Shown here: positions 534 through 56,349 of the stretch, piece by piece | Numbering within the stretch: the stretch's first letter is position 1 | How the letters are laid out: each line of letters begins with the position of its first letter | Assembly: GCA_951406725.2 (NCBI GenBank) | Contig: OX597827.1 | Location: forward strand, 33,480,001-33,544,000 | Origin: Octopus vulgaris | Lineage: Eukaryota | Length of the DNA stretch: 64,000 nucleotides | Direction of reading: 5' to 3' | The notes under the pieces: model-generated | What the model was told of the DNA's origin: nothing | The model's input: only the letters and a program-made list of their open reading frames with translations | The model's database searches: none | Translations under genes and position numbers: made by a program

Positions 534-1365
534 AGTGTAAGCTATGGACACATAAGAGGTGCAGCAATATCACAGGAAGGCTAACTGAGAAAATAGTTTT
601 TGTATGTGGCAGGTGCTCAGGAGCAATAAACACTGAAGACGTGCAGAGAACAACTTCCGTCACATTTCAGGGAGAAAAACTAGAAGTAGGGTGCACTGAA
701 AGTGTAGCTACTAGAATAAGAATAGCCTTGGCAAAGTTCAGAGAGCTCTTACCTCTACTGGTGACAAAGGGCCTCTCGCTCAGAGTAAAAGGGAGACTGT
801 ATGACGCATGTGTACGAACATCCATGCTACATGGCAGTGAAACATGGGCCGTGACTGCTGAGGATATGTGTAAGCTCGCAAGGAATGAAGCTAGTATGAT
901 CTGATGGATGTGTAATGTCAGTGTGCATACTCGACAGAGTGTAAGTACCTTGAGAGAAAAGTTGGACCTAACAAGCATCAGATGTAGTATGCAAGTGAGA
1001 CAACTGCGCTGGTATGGTCATGTGGCGAGAATAGATGAGGATAGCTGTGTGAAAACGTGCCACACCCTAGCGGTTGAGGGAACCTGTAGAAGAGGTAGAC
1101 CCAGGAAGACATGAGATGAAGTGGTGAAGCACAATCTTTGAACATTAGGCCTCGCTGAGGCAGTGACCAGAGACCGAGACTTTTGGAAATATGCTGTGCT
1201 TAAGAAGACCCGGCAAGCCAAGCGAGACCATAACCTTGTGGCCTAAGCCAGGGATGTAACCAGCCTACTTATGCATACCTTCCCTTCATTGGACATTGCT
1301 TGCAAAGACCTGTTGAGACAAGTGAAATCGAAATCAAATTCAATGACTGGCATCCGTGCTAGTGC
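534..1365 (+). mobile_element. RTE-clade LINE, 5'-truncated, RT C-terminal region, degraded
   Basis: ORFs 641-904 and 908-1114: KGRLYDACVRTSMLHGSETW, QLRWYGHVAR, RGRPRKT; near-identical to 39199-39936. Confidence 0.9.
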
Positions 1366-1446: not shown

Positions 1447-2675
1447 GTATGCAGGAAGTAAATAGACGCCTTTAATTTCCAAAATCTTTTATTTAATATG
1501 CAAAGCGAACAATTGAAATGTAATTGATAGGTAGGACTACATACTTTAGTATTTAGATGACATTCCCTTTGCAGTTTTTAATTCAGAAACTCTTTTTGGC
1601 ATTGAACTGATGAGCTTTGTGATTGTCTCTTGTGGAATTTCTGCCCACTTTTCATGCAACAATTGAAACAATTCATCTTTAGATTTAGGTTTCTGTTGAG
1701 TTTTTCGTATAGCTCTATCTAGTATGTTCCAAAGATTTTCAATTGTGTTCATGTCAGGAGATTGGCTCAGCCAAGGAAGCTTTTTGATCCCATTTTCAGT
1801 CAACCATTGTTGACTTCTTTTCACTGTGTAGCACGGAACCCCATCTTCCATGAATAAAAACTCATTTTTCGTTATGTTCTCATGTGAATACATTGGAAGT
1901 AGTCCTTGCTATGGTTCCAACACATTTGATCAGCTCAGAACGACTGTTGTTGGTGACAACTCCCCATACCATTACAGAGATACTGCCATGTTTCACAGTT
2001 GGTTGGAGTTGTTTCAAATCAAATACTTGATTGGGAAGCCTCCAGACCCAAACATGTCCACTGTCTGAAAATAATGCAAATCTGGATTCATCTGAGAAAA
2101 TCACTCTATCCCAAAATGAACTTGATTTTTCTGACATCTCCTTAGCTCATTTCTTTTTTTTTCATGATATTCATTGGTTGAAGGAGAAGTTTTCTTGTAG
2201 TTGCTCGTCCATAATACCCAAGCTTATGCAGATATGTAACACACGTTCTTGGACTAAGTTGTTTTGCAATGTCAGAAGCCTTCAAATGGGGTTTCTTTTT
2301 CCACAATTCTCTTCAAACAGCGAAGCTTCCTTTCCGAGGACCCAGGTCGGCCAGGACAAGAGTCTGTTGATTCTTTTCCTTGGCTTTTAAATTGCACTAT
2401 AACTCTATTAACAGTAGCAAGAGGAATTTGAAAATTTTTGGCAATTTTTTCTGGCTAAGACCAGCCTCAGATTGCCCAGCAATACAACCACTTTGAAAAT
2501 CTGACAGTTCTACTGAATTTTTTGTGCATGGTTACTCTTTGCAGATGTTTAATATAATGGCACCTGGAATGAAAAAGAATAATTACATTGTAAATTCTAC
2601 GCCACTGAAAACATATTAAAACACTAAGATCAGAAATTTTGAAAATTAAAGGTGTCTATTAACCTCCTATATGTC

Positions 2676-13990: not shown

Positions 13991-14619
13991 AAATACACCA
14001 GTACAAAAAGCAAAGTATAAAATATACAAACATTGAAAAGAACCATGTGGTCTAAACAATTTCACATTTCCTACAAATTAGGTCACTTACCTGAAGGAAA
14101 TATTCATTCCTTGTTGATTTTATGCCCGTTTTCTCACAGATATATCCTTGAATGTGAGTGTATATATGTGGCATTTATTTTGGCTGAATTTGACAGACAT
14201 CTATCATTCTCCCATAAATGCAATACACTAGTGAATGACCTGTTAAAGGCCTATAACCAGTGACATTGTGTTCCACAAAATAACATAGTTGATAGCTATG
14301 TGTTTATTTTTGGAGAAACCACACATTCTGCTCATCCTGACTACTTGAAGTCTACTTTCCAAATGCGTTTCACACAGTTTATGCCTCTTTAAGTTTTATC
14401 CTTCTTAAACATGGATGTTCTGTTAGAACAAACTATACTGCAGTAGGTACCATGTGAGAAACTCTCGTATTTGCTCTTTGGTGCAAAATGCACTCTTGTT
14501 TATATCACTAGTGGGGAAATAAATCTCTGCCAATTCCAGTGCCGAGACCACCAGGTCACATGCTTTATTCATAGCAAATTCTAGTGAAACAATTGGAAAA
14601 GCATTGGAAAAATATATCA

Positions 14620-14828
14620 TTTACTTGTTTCAGTCATTAGACTGTGACCATACAGGGGCACCACCTTTAAGCATTTTAGTTGAACAAATCAACCTCAGTA
14701 CTTATTATTTTTGTAAAACCTGGTACATATTTTATGAGTCTCCTTTACTGAACTGCTAACTTACGGGAACATGAACAAACCAACACCGGTTGTCAAGTGG
14801 TGCTGAGGGACAAACACAGACACAGAGA

Positions 14829-26998: not shown

Positions 26999-27369
26999 GT
27001 GAGTTTTTTTTTTTCATTCCAACTATGGACTGCAAGAGACTTCTGCTGCATCAAGACAATAAATCAATGTTATAGAATTTGGATGTTAACTCTTTACAAG
27101 ATTGCTCTTCACAATTTGCTTTGATTTTTAATTTTTTATATGCTTATTTTGTAGCATATACATACATCAGTACACTTTTTACACTGACAACTATTTGTAA
27201 TATACCTTAAATGAATTTAAATACAGATATTTATATACAGGTATAAGTATATATATATATGTTTATATGTATATATACATATATATATCCATTTTCAAAA
27301 TTCCACTCTAACCCTCCAAAAGAAATTTTTCATTATCTCCCTTCTCTTTCTTGACCAATCTACATTCAG
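26999..27369 (+). other. Putative intron preceding the zinc-finger exon
   Basis: CTG|GTGAGT donor at 26999; CTAAC branch at 27308, pyrimidine tract, CAG acceptor at 27367-27369, 15 nt before the ATG. Confidence 0.5.
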
Positions 27370-27384
27370 TGCAAACTGATCATA

Positions 27385-28857
27385 ATGGAAAAATCTTTCA
27401 CATGTGAAATTTGTCAAAAGACATTCACCCGTCGGTCAAACTTGACCCGACATGTCTCAAACTGTCACAGAGACAGAGAAGTAGTGGAAAAATCAGAGAA
27501 CAATGTCAGAATGGAAGAAACCAACGATGTCAGCTTGAGCAACAGCCCAATGGGTGTATTTTCCTGTAACATATGCCTACAAGGCTTTACTTTGAACTCT
27601 CAACTTCAAGCTCATGCTCGGGAACATGAGGCAGAAAGTGGTGTCAGTAGTGAGAACATAAACTCAGTTGTTAATACTGATACAAAAAGTGACGAAGTCA
27701 GTTCTAGTGTCGAGAGTCTTGGCATGGTGAACCCTTGTATTGTGAACCCTTCTATTAGCCCAATTATTACTGCTGATAACAATAATTTGAATAATGTTGG
27801 TCCTGATGTTGCTTCTTCAGAAGTTGTTGTTACCACAGATGTGTTAAATCATGATGTCACTTCTCCAGTTATGGTTGTCAATGGTGTTGTACGTGGTGAT
27901 ACTGCTGTTACTCCCAATCTAATCAACGAAACTATAAACACCACCACCACCTCCACCACTGTCTCAGCTATATCTTCCTCACCATCTCTTTTGGTTCGTC
28001 ACTCAAGTCCTTACTCCTGCTCCATTTGTCAACGAGGCTTCTCCCAGCGATCACATCTTGACGCACATGTTCGCATACACTCGGGAGAGCGGCCCTACCA
28101 GTGTAACCAGTGCGGGGCAGCCTTCTCTCGAAGAGGTAACTTGGTGCGTCATCGGCTGTCTCATGGAGGTGAACGAAAACACAAGTGTACTGTGTGTGGA
28201 CGGAGATTCTCGCAAAAGTCACATCTTCAAGTCCATTTACGGATACACACTGGTGAACGACCTTACAAGTGTGACCGTTGTGGTTATGCCTTTTCTCGCA
28301 ATGGTAATCTCGTCCGGCATCGACGAGCCAACAGCAGCGGCAAGCGTAAATACAGCTGTGTACCTCCCACATTACTGTCAACATCAAGTGGACAACAGTC
28401 AACATCAAACACATCTTCATCACAAGCTGCTCTCATATCCATGTGCCAAAATAATTTGGCACAGACACAAATACAAACTAAAAATGTGGTGAGTGGTTCA
28501 AGTCAGAAGGGAGTGAAGACCCATGTTAGTAACAGTGCTGAAGGCAAGAATGCAGCAGCCTTACATCAGCAACAATTACTGCAAACCACCTCCAATACAA
28601 CTACCACTACTGCAGTGGTAGCAACAGCACCAACTGCTGCAAGTACCAATGTGGTTCAATTAGCAAATGTCCCCTATCAAATAATGACAGCTCTTCCAAG
28701 TCCCCTAAATGCCATTCAGCCAGTGACTAGTTACCACTCCCTGGCTAATGTCCCCCATCAGCTAGTCACTGTTCCACAACCAATTAGTGTCCACCAACTG
28801 GCCAGTCTAGGTAATATTGCCAGCATCCCTCTTCACATTGATGTACCAACAACTTAA
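27385..28857 (+). CDS. C2H2 zinc-finger transcription factor (2 isolated + 4 tandem fingers, Q/T/P-rich C-terminus)
   Basis: Uninterrupted 490-aa ORF; CxxC-x12-H-x3/4-H motifs with SGERP/GGERK/TGERP linkers; sixth finger lacks the terminal His. Confidence 0.95.
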   Translation: MEKSFTCEICQKTFTRRSNLTRHVSNCHRDREVVEKSENNVRMEETNDVSLSNSPMGVFSCNICLQGFTLNSQLQAHAREHEAESGVSSENINSVVNTDTKSDEVSSSVESLGMVNPCIVNPSISPIITADNNNLNNVGPDVASSEVVVTTDVLNHDVTSPVMVVNGVVRGDTAVTPNLINETINTTTTSTTVSAISSSPSLLVRHSSPYSCSICQRGFSQRSHLDAHVRIHSGERPYQCNQCGAAFSRRGNLVRHRLSHGGERKHKCTVCGRRFSQKSHLQVHLRIHTGERPYKCDRCGYAFSRNGNLVRHRRANSSGKRKYSCVPPTLLSTSSGQQSTSNTSSSQAALISMCQNNLAQTQIQTKNVVSGSSQKGVKTHVSNSAEGKNAAALHQQQLLQTTSNTTTTTAVVATAPTAASTNVVQLANVPYQIMTALPSPLNAIQPVTSYHSLANVPHQLVTVPQPISVHQLASLGNIASIPLHIDVPTT

Positions 28858-38534: not shown

Positions 38535-39936
38535 TCATCATCATCATCATCATCATTTAGCGTCCGCTTTCCATGCTAGCATGGGTTGGACGGTTCAACT
38601 GGGGTCTGTGAAGCCAGAAGGCTGCATCAGGCCCAGTCTGATCTGGCAGTGTTTCTACAGCTGGATGCCCTTCCTAACGCCAACCACTCCGTGAGTGTAG
38701 TGGGTGCTTTTTACGTGCGACCTGCACAGGTGCCAGACGGAGCTGGCAAACGGCCATGGACGGATGGTGCTTTTTATGTGCCACCGGCACGGGGGCCAGG
38801 CAAGGCTGGCAACGGCCACGAACAGATGGTGCATTTTACGTGCCACCGGCATGGGGGCCAGGCGAGGCTGGCAACGGCCACGAACGGATGGTGCTTTTTA
38901 CGTGCCACTGGCACGAGGTCAGTCTGGGCGGCGCTGGCAACGGCCACGAATGGATGGTGCTTTTTACGTGCCACTGGCACGAGGCCAGTCTGGGCGGCAC
39001 TGGCAATGGCCACATTTGGATGGTTCTCTTACGTTCCACCGGCACTGGTAACTCAGCTGCAATTTCCATTGATCAATTTCGATTCTGATTCTAACTAGCC
39101 TCAACAGGTCTTCACAAGTAGAGTTTTGTGTCCCAAGAAGGGAAGGTATGCATAAGTGGGTTGGCTACATCCCATGTAGAAGGCCACGGGTTATGGTCTC
39201 ACTTGTCCTGCCGGGTCTTCTCGTGCACAGCATATTTCCAGAGGTCTCGGTCTCTAGCCATTTCCTCAGTGAGACCTAAAGTTCGAAGGTCGTGCTTCAC
39301 CACCTCATCCCAGGTTTTCCTGGGTCTGCCTCTTCCACAGGTTCCCTCAACCACTAGGGTGTGGCACTTTTTCACACAACTATCTTCATCCATTCTCGCC
39401 ACATGCCCATACCAGTGCAAACGTCTCTCTTGCACACCACATCTGATGCTTCTTAGGTCCAGCTTTTCTCTCAAGGTACTTACACTCTGTCGAGTATGAC
39501 TACTGACATTACACATCCATCGGAGCATACTGGCTTCATTTCTTGCGAGCTTATGCATATCCTCAGCAGTCACGGCCCATGTTTCACTGCCATGTAGCAT
39601 GGCTGTTCGTACACACGTGTCATACAGTCTGCCTTTTACTCTGAGCGAGAGGCCTTTTGTCACCAGCAGAGGTAAGAGCTCTCTGAACTTTGCTCAAGCT
39701 ATTCTTACTCTAGCAGTTACACTTTCAGCACACCCGCCCCCGCTGCTGACTTGGTCACCTAGGTAACGGAAGCTATCAACTATTTCTAGTTTTTCTCCCT
39801 GGAAAGTGACAGAAGTTGGTCTCAGAGCATTTTCAGTGTTTATTGTTCCTGAGCATCTGCCACATACAAAAACTATCTTCCTAGTTAGCCTTCCTTTGAC
39901 ATTGCTGCACCTCTTATGTGTCCATAGCTTACACTT
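38532..39936 (-). mobile_element. RTE-clade LINE, 5'-truncated, with tandem-repeat 3' UTR and (GAT)n tail
   Basis: ORFs 39199-39663 and 39694-39936 (FRYLG, LYDTCVRTAMLHGSETW, LHWYGHVAR, RGRPRKTW); ~59-bp repeat array at 38705-39050. Confidence 0.93.
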
Positions 39937-39984
39937 ATATATATATATATAATCAAAATAAGCAACAAGGATATCCAAGATGGA

Positions 39985-40070
39985 GTAGTACAATTGTTTC
40001 ATGTTACTTCATTTTATTAAACACTGTAAGTATTACATCAGTTCTAAAACGTCGAGCAATCTTCAGCCAC
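39985..40070 (-). ncRNA. Candidate type-I hammerhead ribozyme motif
   Basis: Minus strand GTGG-CTGAAGA-TTGCT...AGTAA(CAT)-GAAA-CAATTG-TA-CTAC. Confidence 0.55.
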
Positions 40071-42350: not shown

Positions 42351-42739
42351 ATATATCTTTTGAAAAGATTTGAAAATCTTTTTAGATTATGGAATGCCCT
42401 GCGCTCTCATGTATCCATGTTTAAAATGCAATCAGATGAACAATGCTGGAGTTATAAGTGCACAAACAGACAGACAGAACAGGATGTATGTATTAGATAA
42501 AGATCCACATTTTCTTAAAATCATTAAGAGTAGATATACTTTTCTAGACACGCTATTGCATAGGCACACTAATTCATTAACCAATGCGCACCACTTGAGT
42601 AATATGGATCTGTATTAATTTCATTTATAGGGGTGGTGGGTATGAAGAATATATATATATATATTTATATGCACATACATGTATGTGTATATATATATAA
42701 TTATAATTTTCTTTTGAAAAACATAGATACATCTTCACT

Positions 42740-43155
42740 CAAGATGGGACTCTGGGCCACACATCCAAATTGACACAGTGGTGGTGCAAAGAGCATTTCA
42801 GTGGTTTTTGTGACAAGACAATATGGCCTCTCCCAAGTCCAGACATACTTTGCTATCTGGTCCATCTTAGAGAGTAATGCTCTTTACTTGTTCCTATCCA
42901 AATGTGTCAGATCTGAAGAAAGCTCTTCTGTCTGCATGGGTCAAGTTTGGATGAAGTGGTGGTCAACACTCATTCATCTCAGTGACCACTTATTTGCAGG
43001 CTATGACCAAGGTGAAAGGTGATCATTTTGAAATGTAATTACTGTAATGGATTGACAATTTACATTAAAACATGTGTACCAAATTTCATTATCCTACTGT
43101 ACGTTTATTTTGAATAAAGAAATATCAATGGGTAAATCTTTCTGGAACATCCTGT
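42740..43155 (+). mobile_element. Old Tc1/mariner (maT-like) 3' remnant
   Basis: WPLPSPD...IWSILE-like translation; ends GGAACATCCTG|TA. Confidence 0.5.
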
Positions 43156-43335
43156 ATATATTATATTTGTGTGCATGAAAAATGATAATTTTATATTATG
43201 TTGTTGACATTTTTTGTCATTTATAATGTTGAGGACATTTTTTGAGTTTGTATGTATCAATGTATCTTCACTCATTCCACATAAATACCTATCTATCTAT
43301 CTATCTGTTTGTCTGTCTGTCTATCTATATATCTA

Positions 43336-43395
<60 letters not shown>

Positions 43396-43423
43396 TAAGG
43401 ATGAAAAGGAACACACAAGTTGC

Positions 43424-43658
43424 TATATATGGAAAAAAAGGTCAAGATAGAAAATGCTAAAATAATTTTAGAAAAAACATTTCAGTACCGATTTCAGTCA
43501 TTGAGACTTTTTCAACTGTAACAATTAAATAATTAAATTTAGAAAAATAATTATTTAATTGTTACAGTTGAAAAAGTCTCAATGACTGAAACCGGTACTG
43601 AAATGTTTTTTATAAAATTATTTTAGCATTTTCTATCTTGACTTTTTTTCCATATATA
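43424..43658. repeat. Near-perfect ~235 bp palindrome carrying two minimal hammerhead motifs
   Basis: ~110 bp arms differ by only a few bases; loop AATTTAGAAAAA; flanked by TATATA. Confidence 0.92.
43565..43600 (+). ncRNA. Minimal type-I hammerhead ribozyme, U3-A8 core variant
   Basis: CAG-TTGAAAA-AGTC(TCAAT)GACT-GAAA-CCGG-TA-CTG; mirror copy on the minus strand at 43483-43518. Confidence 0.7.
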
Positions 43659-44045
43659 TATATAAGTGTGTATGTGTAAGAGGTAATGGTTGGAAGAAAA
43701 CGAAGTGGTAGAATGGAGGAAAAAGAGAGAGAGAGAGAGAGAGAATAAAGATAGAAAAGATAGGCAGAGAGAAAATAACAGTGTTCACTAGAGTATCTAA
43801 CATTAAGGAAGAGGAGAATAAAAAGAAAAGGAAAAAATAAGGAAGAGATACACACTAAGGCTGTACTTATAAATGCTGTTCTTAGGCTTTTATAACCACA
43901 ATTCTAATAAACTATAATGCTTACAGGTTTTAATTAGTTTTGTAAATAATTAAGAATTGAACAGGATTTAGTAAAATTAATTACTTTTTTTTTATTAAGT
44001 TGTTCAAAGGGAATGTTAATCATATTGATCTCAGCAATTTTGCAG

Positions 44046-44257
44046 GGGCTGAGGAGACCAGTTACAGCTCCTTCCTCTACTTACACCACTCAAAAAAAAA
44101 ATATTTTGAAGCTAACAAGACATTCTTACATGAAAATTATGAGGCAATGTTTTACTTTGATTGTAACTTCTTTAAAAGGAGAAGGCTTTTATGATAATCA
44201 GATGAGTTAGTTTCCTTGTCATGTATTTTATATTTTTTTCTAAGGAACAAGGAGTGG

Positions 44258-44305
<48 letters not shown>

Positions 44306-44420
44306 AACCTCAACAGGGATCTTCTTTGCCCATCTCTTTGCCAGCTTCTAGAGCCAGAGGTGGTTTTCACAGCTGAATGCTTTGCTTTAATATAGACCAC
44401 TCAACCATGAAGTGGGATTG
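44046..44420 (+). pseudogene. Possible pseudo-exon pair of an unidentified gene
   Basis: TTTGCAG|GLRRPVTAP...EGFYDNQ|ATGAGT (donor mutated); CAACAG|..DLLCPSLCQLLEPEVVFTAECFALI*..|GTAAAT. Confidence 0.3.
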
Positions 44421-45329
44421 GTAAATATTTTCTTTCTTTTTTCAACTTCATTGATGAGGCAAGTGGAATTATTGCCTCCCCAAAAGACACAGATTAATAC
44501 CTTTGTCAAGTTTTGAATTCAACTCCTGCAGACCAGCACCTTAGTCATTTCAGCCATTGTGCAGAATATACCCAATTCAGGTTGTTATATTATTTATAAG
44601 TGCAAACATTGTATTAAATATTTCAGCATGGATAATTGTATATACTGTCTATAACATTTAAATATGATTTGAGCATTATATTTTAAATGCAGCTTGCACT
44701 GTTAAGACATACCCTTCATCAGCTGTTGATTAGATATAACAATTTCAGCATCTATAAGCTACATCACTGCTTCAAGTATTAATGAGCAGTACTTGATGCT
44801 ACCAGAGAATGTCTGAGTTATTTTGTTCCTCACTTCAGAATGGTCTATTCCCTTCCTCTTATCCATGCATCTACTAAAATCACTTTTAATAACTCCAATT
44901 GCTGAAAATGACAATATTTGGGGTCAAATTTCAAATTTTTACTGGCATGTCAATGGTAATAATGCTATCATCTAAATATCAAACTTATTTCTTTTTCTCT
45001 GGACAAAAGTTATAATTAACTATTTGCAACATAGAGATACAGTTAAGGTATGTTATACATTCACTGCAATATTGGTCCAGATACCAATATTACTCGCAAT
45101 ACCAGAGGGCGCACACTCTCCTACCCTGATGTAATCTCCAGGGATACAGGCATCCAACAACAAGACTCCCGTAATGCTATGATGGACCATAAAGTCTGGT
45201 GTAGCATGGTAAATTCCATTGTCTCGACCACAGTCAAACAATGATGATTGGTCCAGAATGTGGAATAAAATGTCGATCTGGTACTGCATGTCTATTAATT
45301 GTTTCTGCATGTGTTTACTTTACAAGTTG

Positions 45330-46045
45330 TGAAATTTGTGTTTTTGTGATCATGTGTATATTGTAGTCATGGACAGGAAGTTGGAACAAAGAGCAAACAT
45401 GGAATTTTGCATTAAACTTGGGAAGTCTACTACAGATACATTGAGCATGCTTCGGCAAGCTTACTGCGACGAGTCCAAGGGTTGTAAGCAATGTTTCAAA
45501 TGGCATGGGCACTTCAAAAGGTACAACAGAGCCACAACTCTGAGAGTATGCTCACTGTTTCTTCCAACATCCATGGTATTATGCATGGAGAATTCATCCC
45601 CCAGGGCCAGACCATCAATTGAAAGTTCCACTGCAACATTTTGAAGCATTTGAGGGAAGACATTTGGCAAAAGTGACTGGATCTATGGAGCACAAAGAAT
45701 TGGATTCTTTATGATGACAGTGCACCCTGTCACTGAGTTATCCTCACTCAAGAGTTTCTTGCCAAAAACAACATGCTGTCACTTCCGCACCTGTCCTATT
45801 TACCAGATTTAGCACCTGCAGCCTTCCATCTCTTCTTCAAGATGAAAATGCAACTCAAAGGTCACCGTTTTAGCACTTGCTTAAGAAAATGACTTCTGGG
45901 CCAGATTCTGAAAGTGGCAGGAACACTGGGACCAGTTTATTGCTGCATAAGGTGACTATTTTGAGTGAGGTGACATAAAAACTTAGGTAAATAAGTTATT
46001 TTTCATTAAACATAACTAGTCTGGGAACTTTTTGATACTACCTTG
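45330..46045 (+). mobile_element. mariner transposon, internally deleted
   Basis: MDRKLEQRANMEFCIKLGKS...; YLPDLAPAAF; terminal GAACTTTTTGATACTACCTTG|TA. Confidence 0.85.
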
Positions 46046-55181: not shown

Positions 55182-56349
55182 AATTTTCTTTCAGAATGAG
55201 ATAAAAAACCATGGCTGTGAAGATTATAGAACATTTATAAATAGGTCTTGGAAGACCGGGTGGAGCACTATCGGCATCTTATGCTTTTTTACTTCAGAAA
55301 AGGAAAGAAAGCAACAGAAACTTGCCGAAAGTTATGCAATGTGTATGGAGAGAATGCTGTTTCAGAAAGGGTGTGCCAGAAATGGTTTGCTCGATTTCGA
55401 TAAGGGAATTTTTCAGTAAGAGATGCACCTTGCTCTAGCCAGCGAAAAGAAATTGACTTTGACCAATTGAGAGCTGTAGTCAAACAAGACTGCAGTCTTA
55501 CGACCAGACAAATCATAGATATTCTTAACATATCACAAAAAAGTGTGGAAAATGAATTGCATAAACTTGGTTGCATTTCTAAACTTAATGTCTGGGTTCC
55601 CCATAAATTGACAGAAGCAAATCTTGTCCAGAGGGTTTCCATTTGTGATTCATTACTGAAAAGGGAAAACAACGAACCCTTTTTGAGAAGAATTGTTACT
55701 GGAGATGAAAAGTGGGTAGTTTATAATAATATGAAACAAAGAAGATCATGGAAAAAAGCAGAGGATTCTCCAAAACGAACACCTAAAACAGGTCTTCACC
55801 TAAAGAAAGTTCTGTTATCGATATGGTGGGATTGAAAGAGTGTTATCTTTTTTTAAACTTCTTCCCTTGAATAAAACCATCAATTCAGAGGTTTAATGTG
55901 AACAACTGGATAAATTAAACATGGCTCTTCATCAAAAATGGCCAGAACTGGTGAATCACAAAGGCGTTGTTTTCTACCATGACAACGCAAGGCCACACAC
56001 TGCTTTGATTACTCGACAGAAGTTGCTGCAGTTCGAGTGGGAAGTTTTGCCTCACCCTCCATACTCTTCAGATCTGGCCCCATCAGATTTCCATCTGTTT
56101 CGGTCACTGCAAAATTCATTGAATGGAAAAAATTTTAATTCTGATGAAGATGTGAAAACTTTCTTGGAAATTTTTTTGCTAATAAAGAACCTAAATTCTT
56201 CGAATAGGGGGTTAAAGATCTACCCAACAGGCGACGAAAGGTTATAGAAGCAAATGGTAACTATTGCATTGATTAAATGCATTTTTCACAGTTGTTTACT
56301 TTGTTTTGATTTTCACCTAAAAAACAAACAAACTTTTTGGCCAACCCAA
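55182..56349 (+). mobile_element. mariner transposon (DD34D), near full length with stops and frameshifts
   Basis: WVPHKL, IVTGDEKW, HDNARPH-34aa-D (YSSDLAPSDF); 3' TIR ACTTTTTGGCCAACCCAA|TA; 5' TIR lost. Confidence 0.93.

What the first reader, a model, noticed from the sequence alone, without database searches (positions are those of the whole stretch)
43424..43658. Young palindrome carrying twin minimal hammerhead ribozymes with the compensated U3-A8 core
Seen: a near-perfect ~235 bp inverted repeat inserted in (TA)n. Each arm, read outward from the centre, gives CAG-TTGAAAA-AGTC(TCAAT)GACT-GAAA-CCGG-TA-CTG (+ 43565-43600; - 43518-43483, with TCGG). That is stem I (CAG/CTG), core, 4-bp stem II, GAAA, palindromic loop III and a GUA cleavage triplet. 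Known: minimal type-I hammerheads with palindromic loop III occur in the terminal repeats of Penelope-like elements, which often insert as inverted pairs. Positions 3 and 8 of CUGANGA form a base pair, so UUGAAAA is the double-compensated variant rather than random decay, and canonical CUGANGA searches would miss it. Inference: a protein-less, ribozyme-bearing mini-retroelement that may still be active.
Basis: partly seen in the sequence, partly recalled or inferred. Interest (0 to 1): 0.8.

Follow-up and report, generated by a model that had tools for sequence, protein, structure and literature searches.

The report
Inverted Penelope-type ends with minimal hammerheads
The palindrome in this octopus DNA is most likely an ordinary leftover of a Penelope-like jumping gene: two short, back-to-back copies of its end, each with a known variant of a small self-cutting RNA motif, so it is a new example of a described arrangement rather than a new kind of element.

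Summary
The arms differ at 3 of 112 columns. Both read outward as minimal type-I hammerheads with a U3-A8 core; 0 of 20,000 arm shuffles gave such a motif. The host is Octopus-like. Contigs of 4 public runs show a high-copy dispersed family with U3-A8 as the majority core. The left arm carries a further 31-nt family tail (43393-43423) that the right arm lacks. The 12-nt centre is extra 5' sequence of the left copy. A head-to-head pair of unequally 5'-truncated ends, a 30-40-nt tail on one side only, a hammerhead near the 3' end and a (TA)n target are the published signature of Penelope-like insertions. The U3-A8 core and opposite-strand hammerhead pairs were already reported in Schistosoma Penelope-like elements. 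A self-contained, still active mini-element is not supported. The two ribozymes lie on opposite strands and cannot pair within one RNA, a read-through transcript folds into one long hairpin, and the left copy has a weakened helix III. No RT/GIY-YIG master could be linked, and cleavage is untested.

The parts
43393..43423 (-).
   Evidence: The loose-end consensus behind 43661 in X1 (45 contigs), X2 (41) and X17 (19) matches the reverse complement of 43393-43422 at 27 of 30 letters (compared by eye). The tool prints at most 30 letters, so the family tail may be longer. No other copy in the window.
43424..43547 (-). Left copy: 5'-truncated 3' end (pLTR-like) of the family, 124 nt, 3' end facing outward
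   Evidence: Family contigs continue 5' through the reverse complement of 43536-43547 and beyond (loose ends before 43548: X1 21, X2 25, X13 2 contigs).
43483..43518 (-). Left minimal hammerhead, U3-A8 core; C15.2 changed to U at 43491; predicted cut 3' of 43486
   Evidence: The helix-III duplex falls from -8.3 (right/right) to -3.1 kcal/mol (left/left). The change is not listed at 2% or more in any of 4 runs.
43536..43547 (-). Unpaired centre = extra 5' sequence of the left copy; the inversion junction is at 43547/43548
   Evidence: Loose-end consensus before 43548 ends in the reverse complement of this stretch.
43548..43658 (+). Right copy: same 3' end, 12 nt shorter at the 5' side, no tail, ends in TA repeats
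   Evidence: Contig depth over it reaches 1.1-1.8 million in X1 against about 190 in the flank beyond 43695 (a sum over contigs, not a copy number).
43565..43600 (+). Right minimal type-I hammerhead: 3-bp stem I, UUGAAAA, 4-bp stem II, GAAA, self-complementary ACCGGU, GUA triplet; predicted cut after 43597
   Evidence: In the 56-nt fragment 43555-43610 stem I pairs at 0.65-0.66 and stem II at 0.91-0.93.
43343..43392 (.). TA microsatellite and TA-rich target on the left side; no target-site duplication discernible
   Evidence: Read directly. Family 3' ends followed by TA runs: loose ends behind 43664 in 63, 70 and 27 contigs of X1, X2 and X17.

Best explanation
This is a dead-on-arrival insertion made by the machinery of a Penelope-like element (PLE) in an Octopus genome. 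A family RNA was reverse transcribed into a TA-rich target. Only about 110-155 nt of its 3' end (pseudo-LTR) was copied, twice and head-to-head. One copy started at the distal initiation site and so carries the 31-nt tail; the other started at the proximal site and has no tail. Each copy contains the family's minimal hammerhead. In the master element this motif would cut only as a dimer through the ACCGGU helix III, or with protein help, at a low rate. At this locus it is most likely a passenger. Shown: the anatomy, the high-copy family, the two classes of 3' end, U3-A8 as the family core. Inferred from literature: PLE origin, target-primed reverse transcription, two initiation sites, the dimer requirement. 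Not shown: the RT/GIY-YIG master, cleavage, transcription.
For: (1) Tail on one side only, shared by contigs of 3 of 4 laid runs among the loose ends printed. This is the 'optional 30-40 bp tail', described as a signature unique to PLEs and explained by two RT start sites (PMC11167929, parts 1-2 of 4 read). A 31-bp tail on one of the inverted pLTRs and mostly head-to-head pairs are described for rotifer Penelopes (PMC3846280 passages). (2) The arms end at different 5' points and the family continues upstream, like the 'inverted 5'-truncated copy' of PLE insertions (PMC8557442 passages). (3) Hammerhead near the 3' end with palindromic helix III. The M. japonicus PLE motif has the same A10.1-U11.1 pair, 4-bp stem II, CG loop and A17, and S. 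mansoni(4) has the same UUGAAAA core and a 3-bp stem I (PMC4209133 supplement file 2, part 2). (4) TA-rich target. (5) O. vulgaris has 31 recently active Penelope-like families (PMC13282606 passages), and the window's zinc-finger ORF is 97% identical over 100% to an O. bimaculoides entry.
Against: No RT or GIY-YIG link. None of 121 frames of 45 aa or more within 37.2-49.8 kb matched an RT or GIY-YIG Pfam family (121 of 621 frames in the window; insensitive, since a recognisably LINE-like fragment at 39202-39693 also scored nothing). The family's upstream sequence is seen only as 30-letter loose ends. Core conservation is not significant: 0 of 13 core positions against 13 of 58 downstream positions carry a variant at 2% or more, p=0.11. 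Stem II covariation is inconclusive. U11.1-to-C is common (about 8% of depth in X1, X2 and X17, 34% in X13). The matching A10.1-to-G appears only in one loose-end consensus (21 contigs, X2) and not in the table of other letters. The motif lacks the bulged base and the G10.1-C11.1 pair of the published consensus. The fragment folds no better than shuffles (z 0.07).
Confidence: 0.8

Rival explanations
1. The family has no coding master of its own. It is a short non-autonomous PLE derivative (pLTR-only, like a dispersed retrozyme or SINE) that is transcribed and moved in trans, and this locus is one of its inverted double insertions.
For: Very high contig numbers (3741, 3741, 1243 and 46 laid in X1, X2, X17 and X13) concentrated on about 110 nt. 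Animal retrozymes are proposed to be non-autonomous pLTR relatives (bioRxiv 10.64898/2026.07.22.740005, passages), and pLTRs alone sufficed for mobilisation in trans in a rotifer.
Against: Heavy 5' truncation of an autonomous PLE gives the same pile-up at the 3' end. No fixed 5' end is seen: loose ends run on upstream at 43548, 43562 and 43566. Retrozymes are tandem direct repeats with canonical hammerheads, which this is not.
Confidence: 0.13
2. It is a MITE or foldback DNA transposon with long terminal inverted repeats and a TA target; the hammerhead-like motif is incidental.
For: Near-perfect palindrome with TA at both arm ends. One other contig (X2 record 25, depth 31.6, 19 differences) also spans a centre. 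The window holds mariner-like transposase remnants (weak HTH_48 match).
Against: The family tail makes the ends asymmetric. Printed loose ends at the 5' side go into shared non-inverted sequence, and no strand-change joint is listed. The full motif arose in 0 of 20,000 arm shuffles.
Confidence: 0.05
3. The palindromic 235-bp unit is itself a currently active, self-cleaving mini-retroelement.
For: The arms are 97% alike, and 631 of 3741 contigs in X1 are at least 99% alike to the window.
Against: Any one strand carries only one sense ribozyme, so no dimer forms in cis. The read-through RNA is one long hairpin, and even the 111-nt right copy alone has 0.0 probability for stems I and II. The left ribozyme has a private helix-III change. 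The junction looks locus-specific (short high-depth contigs across it cannot be fully excluded, as only 32 of about 8,800 pieces are printed).
Confidence: 0.02

Closest known systems
Minimal hammerheads in pLTRs of metazoan Penelope-like elements (Cervera and de la Pena 2014, PMC4209133), especially the S. mansoni Cercyon U3-A8 family and the Marsupenaeus japonicus PLE motif
   Same: Type I, short stem I, palindromic helix III, AU-rich flanks. U3-A8 core with the same UUGAAAA as S. mansoni(4). Opposite-strand pairs at short distance (reported about 100-700 bp apart). A10.1-U11.1, 4-bp stem II, CG loop and A17 as in M. japonicus.
   Different: This exact combination (U3-A8 core with an unbulged A-U-closed stem II and CCGG) is not among the rows of the supplement part I read, and no cephalopod row appears there. 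The two motifs here are only about 50 nt apart. No PLE ORF has been linked.
Canonical C-terminal EN+ PLE insertions (Penelope/Poseidon, Neptune, Nematis, Hydra; PMC3846280, PMC8557442, PMC11167929)
   Same: Head-to-head inverted 5'-truncated end, 31-nt tail on one side, hammerhead near the 3' end, AT-rich or microsatellite target without a discernible TSD.
   Different: No ORF at this locus. The clade cannot be assigned. In Poseidon-type elements the hammerhead and tail overlap the ORF start, whereas no open frame runs through this 3' end, apart from one short frame on the left copy of unknown meaning.
Naiad PLEs (PMC8557442)
   Same: (TA)n target preference, tail, inverted truncated copies.
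   Different: Naiads lack canonical hammerheads and are described as long inactivated in cephalopods.
Non-LTR retrozymes of animals (PMC7229834; bioRxiv 10.64898/2026.07.22.740005)
   Same: Short, non-coding, type-I hammerhead, related to pLTRs.
   Different: Retrozymes are direct tandem arrays of units of about 220-350 nt with canonical hammerheads; this is an inverted pair of 110-155 nt with a minimal motif.

Membership tests
Minimal type-I hammerhead (PLE type) | Core YUGANRA with a 3-8 Watson-Crick pair, GAAA, and UH | tested here: met
   U3-A8 core, GAAA and UA in both copies; no variant at 2% or more at these 13 positions in 4 runs.
Minimal type-I hammerhead (PLE type) | Stems I and II can form; helix III is self-complementary | tested here: met
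   3-bp and 4-bp stems with probabilities 0.65 and 0.9 in the 56-nt fragment; ACCGGU duplex -8.3 kcal/mol. They do not form in the longer contexts tested.
Minimal type-I hammerhead (PLE type) | Covariation in stems across the family | tested here: inconclusive
   U11.1-to-C is common; A10.1-to-G is seen only in one loose-end consensus; linkage not shown.
Minimal type-I hammerhead (PLE type) | Self-cleavage after H17 as a dimer or with protein | not testable with these tools
   Needs an in vitro assay.
PLE-type insertion (pLTR fragments) | Optional 30-40-nt tail at one end | tested here: met
   31 nt at 43393-43423, shared with 45, 41 and 19 contigs in three runs.
PLE-type insertion (pLTR fragments) | Inverted 5'-truncated copy adjoining the 5' end (head-to-head) | tested here: met
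   The copies stop 12 nt apart while family sequence continues upstream.
PLE-type insertion (pLTR fragments) | Dispersed repeat with defined 3' ends in AT-rich or microsatellite targets | tested here: met
   Thousands of contigs; 3' ends followed by TA runs.
PLE-type insertion (pLTR fragments) | Same end attached to an RT plus GIY-YIG ORF elsewhere in the genome | not testable with these tools
   No genome is held; the collection scans found no copy.
Autonomous full-length PLE at this locus | RT plus GIY-YIG ORF between or beside the pLTRs | tested here: not met
   Only 12 nt lie between the arms; 0 of 121 nearby frames matched RT or GIY-YIG. Not filed as such.
MITE / TIR DNA transposon | Symmetric TIR ends with a short TSD and a fixed unit across copies | tested here: not met
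   Family-derived tail on one side; 5' sides run into non-inverted shared sequence.
Non-LTR retrozyme | Direct tandem repeats with same-strand hammerheads | tested here: not met
   Only 2 copies in the window, inverted; other loci not visible.

The most novel reading that the evidence does not exclude
The family is a stand-alone, protein-less pLTR-only element that has amplified to very high copy number in several octopus species by borrowing Penelope enzymes. It keeps a U3-A8 hammerhead under selection across subfamilies and often inserts as self-primed head-to-head pairs, which would be a large, previously unreported source of perfect double-stranded RNA hairpins in cephalopods.
Probability: 0.13. 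Interest if true: 0.5.

Novelty: new member of a known kind. Interest (0 to 1): 0.25.

Why it matters
Modestly. It adds cephalopods to the hosts of U3-A8 minimal hammerheads. I found no paper describing an octopus hammerhead in two searches (listings only, plus passages of PMC8557442), and PMC13282606 has no 'hammerhead' or 'ribozyme' in its main text. Repbase and Dfam entries and the Lunse 2017 paper could not be checked. The locus is a compact natural example of the tail-plus-inversion signature whose mechanism is still being worked out. A high-copy family with a fixed U3-A8 core would be good material for testing whether PLE hammerheads are under selection. Each ingredient is already in print.

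Tried and rejected
No whole genome is held, so there is no direct copy count and no 5' extension. The Rfam E-value scan over 42500-44500 listed no hammerhead family among 49 matches. Exact-motif scans found 0 stretches in metagenome, prokaryote genome and viral contigs; this is uninformative for an animal repeat. A looser motif without a stem-II constraint gave 3 metagenome loci. All 3 lie inside long open frames and have no proper stem II, so I rejected them as chance. Run search: 20 of 24 rows hold part of the stretch, in 5 coded organisms; I laid only 4, and the others are not used as evidence. No holder is on record as RNA. X13 is only a guessed RNA run, so it says nothing on transcription. 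The empty-site test was not achieved, because the laid stretch (43520-43722) lacked the left flank. A bacterial promoter/terminator scan found nothing and does not apply to an animal. Look-ups of earlier findings by place, sequence or full word set were blank; one search returned other PLE cases only. A paper search for C3U plus G8A gave 0. Lunse et al. 2017 is not held and is known here only through a review passage. Supplement file 1 of PMC4209133 was not searchable, and I did not open the supplements of PMC8557442 or PMC13282606; these could list this family.

Full report
Observation. The inverted repeat is real: arms 43424-43535 and 43548-43658 differ by two substitutions and one indel in 112 columns. 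Read outward from the centre, each arm gives a minimal type-I hammerhead. On + 43565-43600 it has a 3-bp stem I, core UUGAAAA (U3 at 43568, A8 at 43573), a 4-bp stem II closed by A10.1-U11.1, GAAA, a self-complementary ACCGGU helix III and A17 at 43597. The - strand copy (43518-43483) has C15.2 changed to U. A relaxed descriptor allowing C3-G8 or U3-A8 found only these two sites in the 64-kb window, 0 hits in 30 block-shuffled windows and a hit in 0 of 20,000 arm shuffles. A looser one gave 0.025 sites per shuffled window, so in a genome of gigabases the motif alone would not be proof. Rfam listed no hammerhead family among 49 matches.

Host. The 490-aa zinc-finger frame at 27385-28854 is 97% identical over its whole length to an Octopus bimaculoides entry; other hits are at most 54%. 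I take the host to be Octopus or a close relative.

Family evidence. No genome was available, so I laid contigs of four public runs on 43520-43722 at 80% likeness. Laid were 3741 (X1), 3741 (X2; the equal number suggests a cap), 1243 (X17) and 46 (X13) contigs. Summed depth over the arm reached 1.1-1.8 million in X1 against about 190 in the flank. This is not a copy number, but it shows a high-copy dispersed repeat in at least three coded organisms (A, B, D). In X1, 631 contigs were at least 99% alike, 1331 were 95-99%, 1300 were 90-95% and 479 were under 90%, so the family spans a range of ages.

Three points follow from the loose ends, of which only the best supported were printed (354 more not shown). 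First, 3' ends are of two kinds: followed by TA runs (63, 70 and 27 contigs behind 43664), or followed by a shared sequence of about 30 nt (45, 41 and 19 contigs behind 43661). That sequence matches the reverse complement of window 43393-43422 at 27 of 30 letters. The left arm therefore carries a 31-nt family tail that the right arm lacks, and the insertion spans 43393-43658. Second, contigs clipped before 43548 (21, 25 and 2) continue with the reverse complement of the centre 43536-43547 and beyond. The centre is thus extra 5' sequence of the left copy, and both copies are 5'-truncated, 12 nt apart. Third, other contigs diverge upstream at 43562 or 43566 into shared subfamily sequences, not into an inverted arm. 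No strand-change joint was listed, and one single-depth contig (X2 record 25) spans a centre with 19 differences.

The core. No other letter reached 2% of depth at any of the 13 core positions in any run, so U3-A8 is the family state. As a test of selection this is weak: 0 of 13 against 13 of 58 downstream positions, p=0.11, and 4 of 36 for the whole motif, p=0.27. U11.1-to-C is frequent, but its partner change A10.1-to-G shows only in one loose-end consensus (21 contigs, X2), so covariation is not established.

Comparison with the literature. Cervera and de la Pena 2014 (PMC4209133; parts 1-2 of 4 of the text and part 2 of supplement file 2 read) report minimal hammerheads in the pLTRs of metazoan PLEs. 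They report a U3-A8 variant from Schistosoma Cercyon elements (about 1,300 hits) and pairs on opposite strands 100-700 bp apart. Their alignment has S. mansoni(4) with the same UUGAAAA core and M. japonicus with the same stem II and helix III design. They saw no cleavage for a monomer and low cleavage for dimers. Perreault 2011 (passage) records natural U3-A8 covariation and states that ribozymes covarying at these positions had been shown active in vitro. Craig 2021 (12 of 20 passages) and Arkhipova 2013 (passages) describe the inverted 5'-truncated copy, the head-to-head orientation, a 30-40-bp (in one case 31-bp) tail on one end only, and microsatellite targets. Frangieh 2024 (parts 1-2 of 4) explains the tail by two internal RT start sites and finds that PLE's hammerhead protein-assisted and dispensable for insertion in vitro.

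How it most likely works. Inferred: an RT/GIY-YIG ribonucleoprotein nicked TA-rich DNA and copied the family's 3' end twice, once from each start site, with early termination and inversion. The hammerhead belongs to the master's terminal repeat, where tandem same-strand copies could pair through ACCGGU (-8.3 kcal/mol duplex). At this locus it is probably inert. The two motifs are on opposite strands. A read-through RNA folds as one hairpin of -151 kcal/mol. Stems I and II have probability 0.0 both there and in the 111-nt right copy alone, against 0.65 and 0.9 in the 56-nt fragment. The left motif's duplex drops to -3.1 kcal/mol. If both arms were identical at insertion, three differences imply about 1.3% change per arm. 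On the scale quoted in PMC13282606 (0.09 for 25 My) that is a few million years. This is a rough inference, and conversion between the arms would make the insertion look younger.

What is not shown. There is no link to an RT or GIY-YIG frame: 0 of 121 nearby frames matched either (low sensitivity), and the collection scans held no copy. The 3 loose-pattern hits were chance matches inside genes. Cleavage and transcription are untested. A non-autonomous pLTR-only master remains possible (about 13%); a MITE or a self-contained active palindrome is unlikely.

Verdict. It is a new member of a known kind; I found no octopus example in the searches named above. Interest 0.25.

Noticed in passing
window 41959(-), 14637(-), 29356(-), 35529(-), 53311(+), 6004(-): The 3' end of a common short repeat (SINE-like; label recalled) carries an AGUC/GACU hairpin followed by GAAAC, two bases and GUA or a near variant, resembling the 3' half of this hammerhead but with no core motif upstream (BLAST E=0.018 for 14608-14643). 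Probably coincidence; a shared origin was not tested.
   Followed up: partly
window 43423-43445 (- strand): The junction between body and tail looks like a 3' splice acceptor: a branch-point-like hexamer, a pyrimidine run, then AG just where the tail begins. PLEs retain introns in their pLTRs, so this may mark one; read by eye only.
   Followed up: no
window 43570-43578 with 43640-43649: Within one copy the core and 5' side of stem II are complementary to the U-rich 3' end, and this pairing displaces the hammerhead fold in the 110-nt copy; possibly an off-switch, possibly chance in AT-rich sequence.
   Followed up: partly
loose ends before 43612 (X17) and 43566 (X1, X17): A diverged subfamily keeps GAAA and the CCGG helix III but appears to have a GUU triplet and a different stem I; its 5' half was not visible.
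   Followed up: no
window 27355-28857 (+): Single long open frame for a C2H2 zinc-finger protein, 97% identical to an O. bimaculoides entry.
   Followed up: partly
window 39199-40008 (-), 536-904 (+), 55404-56247 (+), 1546-1908 (-), 45333-45644 (+): Decayed LINE-like (RTE type, recalled) and Tc1/mariner-like transposase fragments (weak Mos1 HTH match at 45333); 38580-39098 holds a GC-richer tandem repeat.
   Followed up: no
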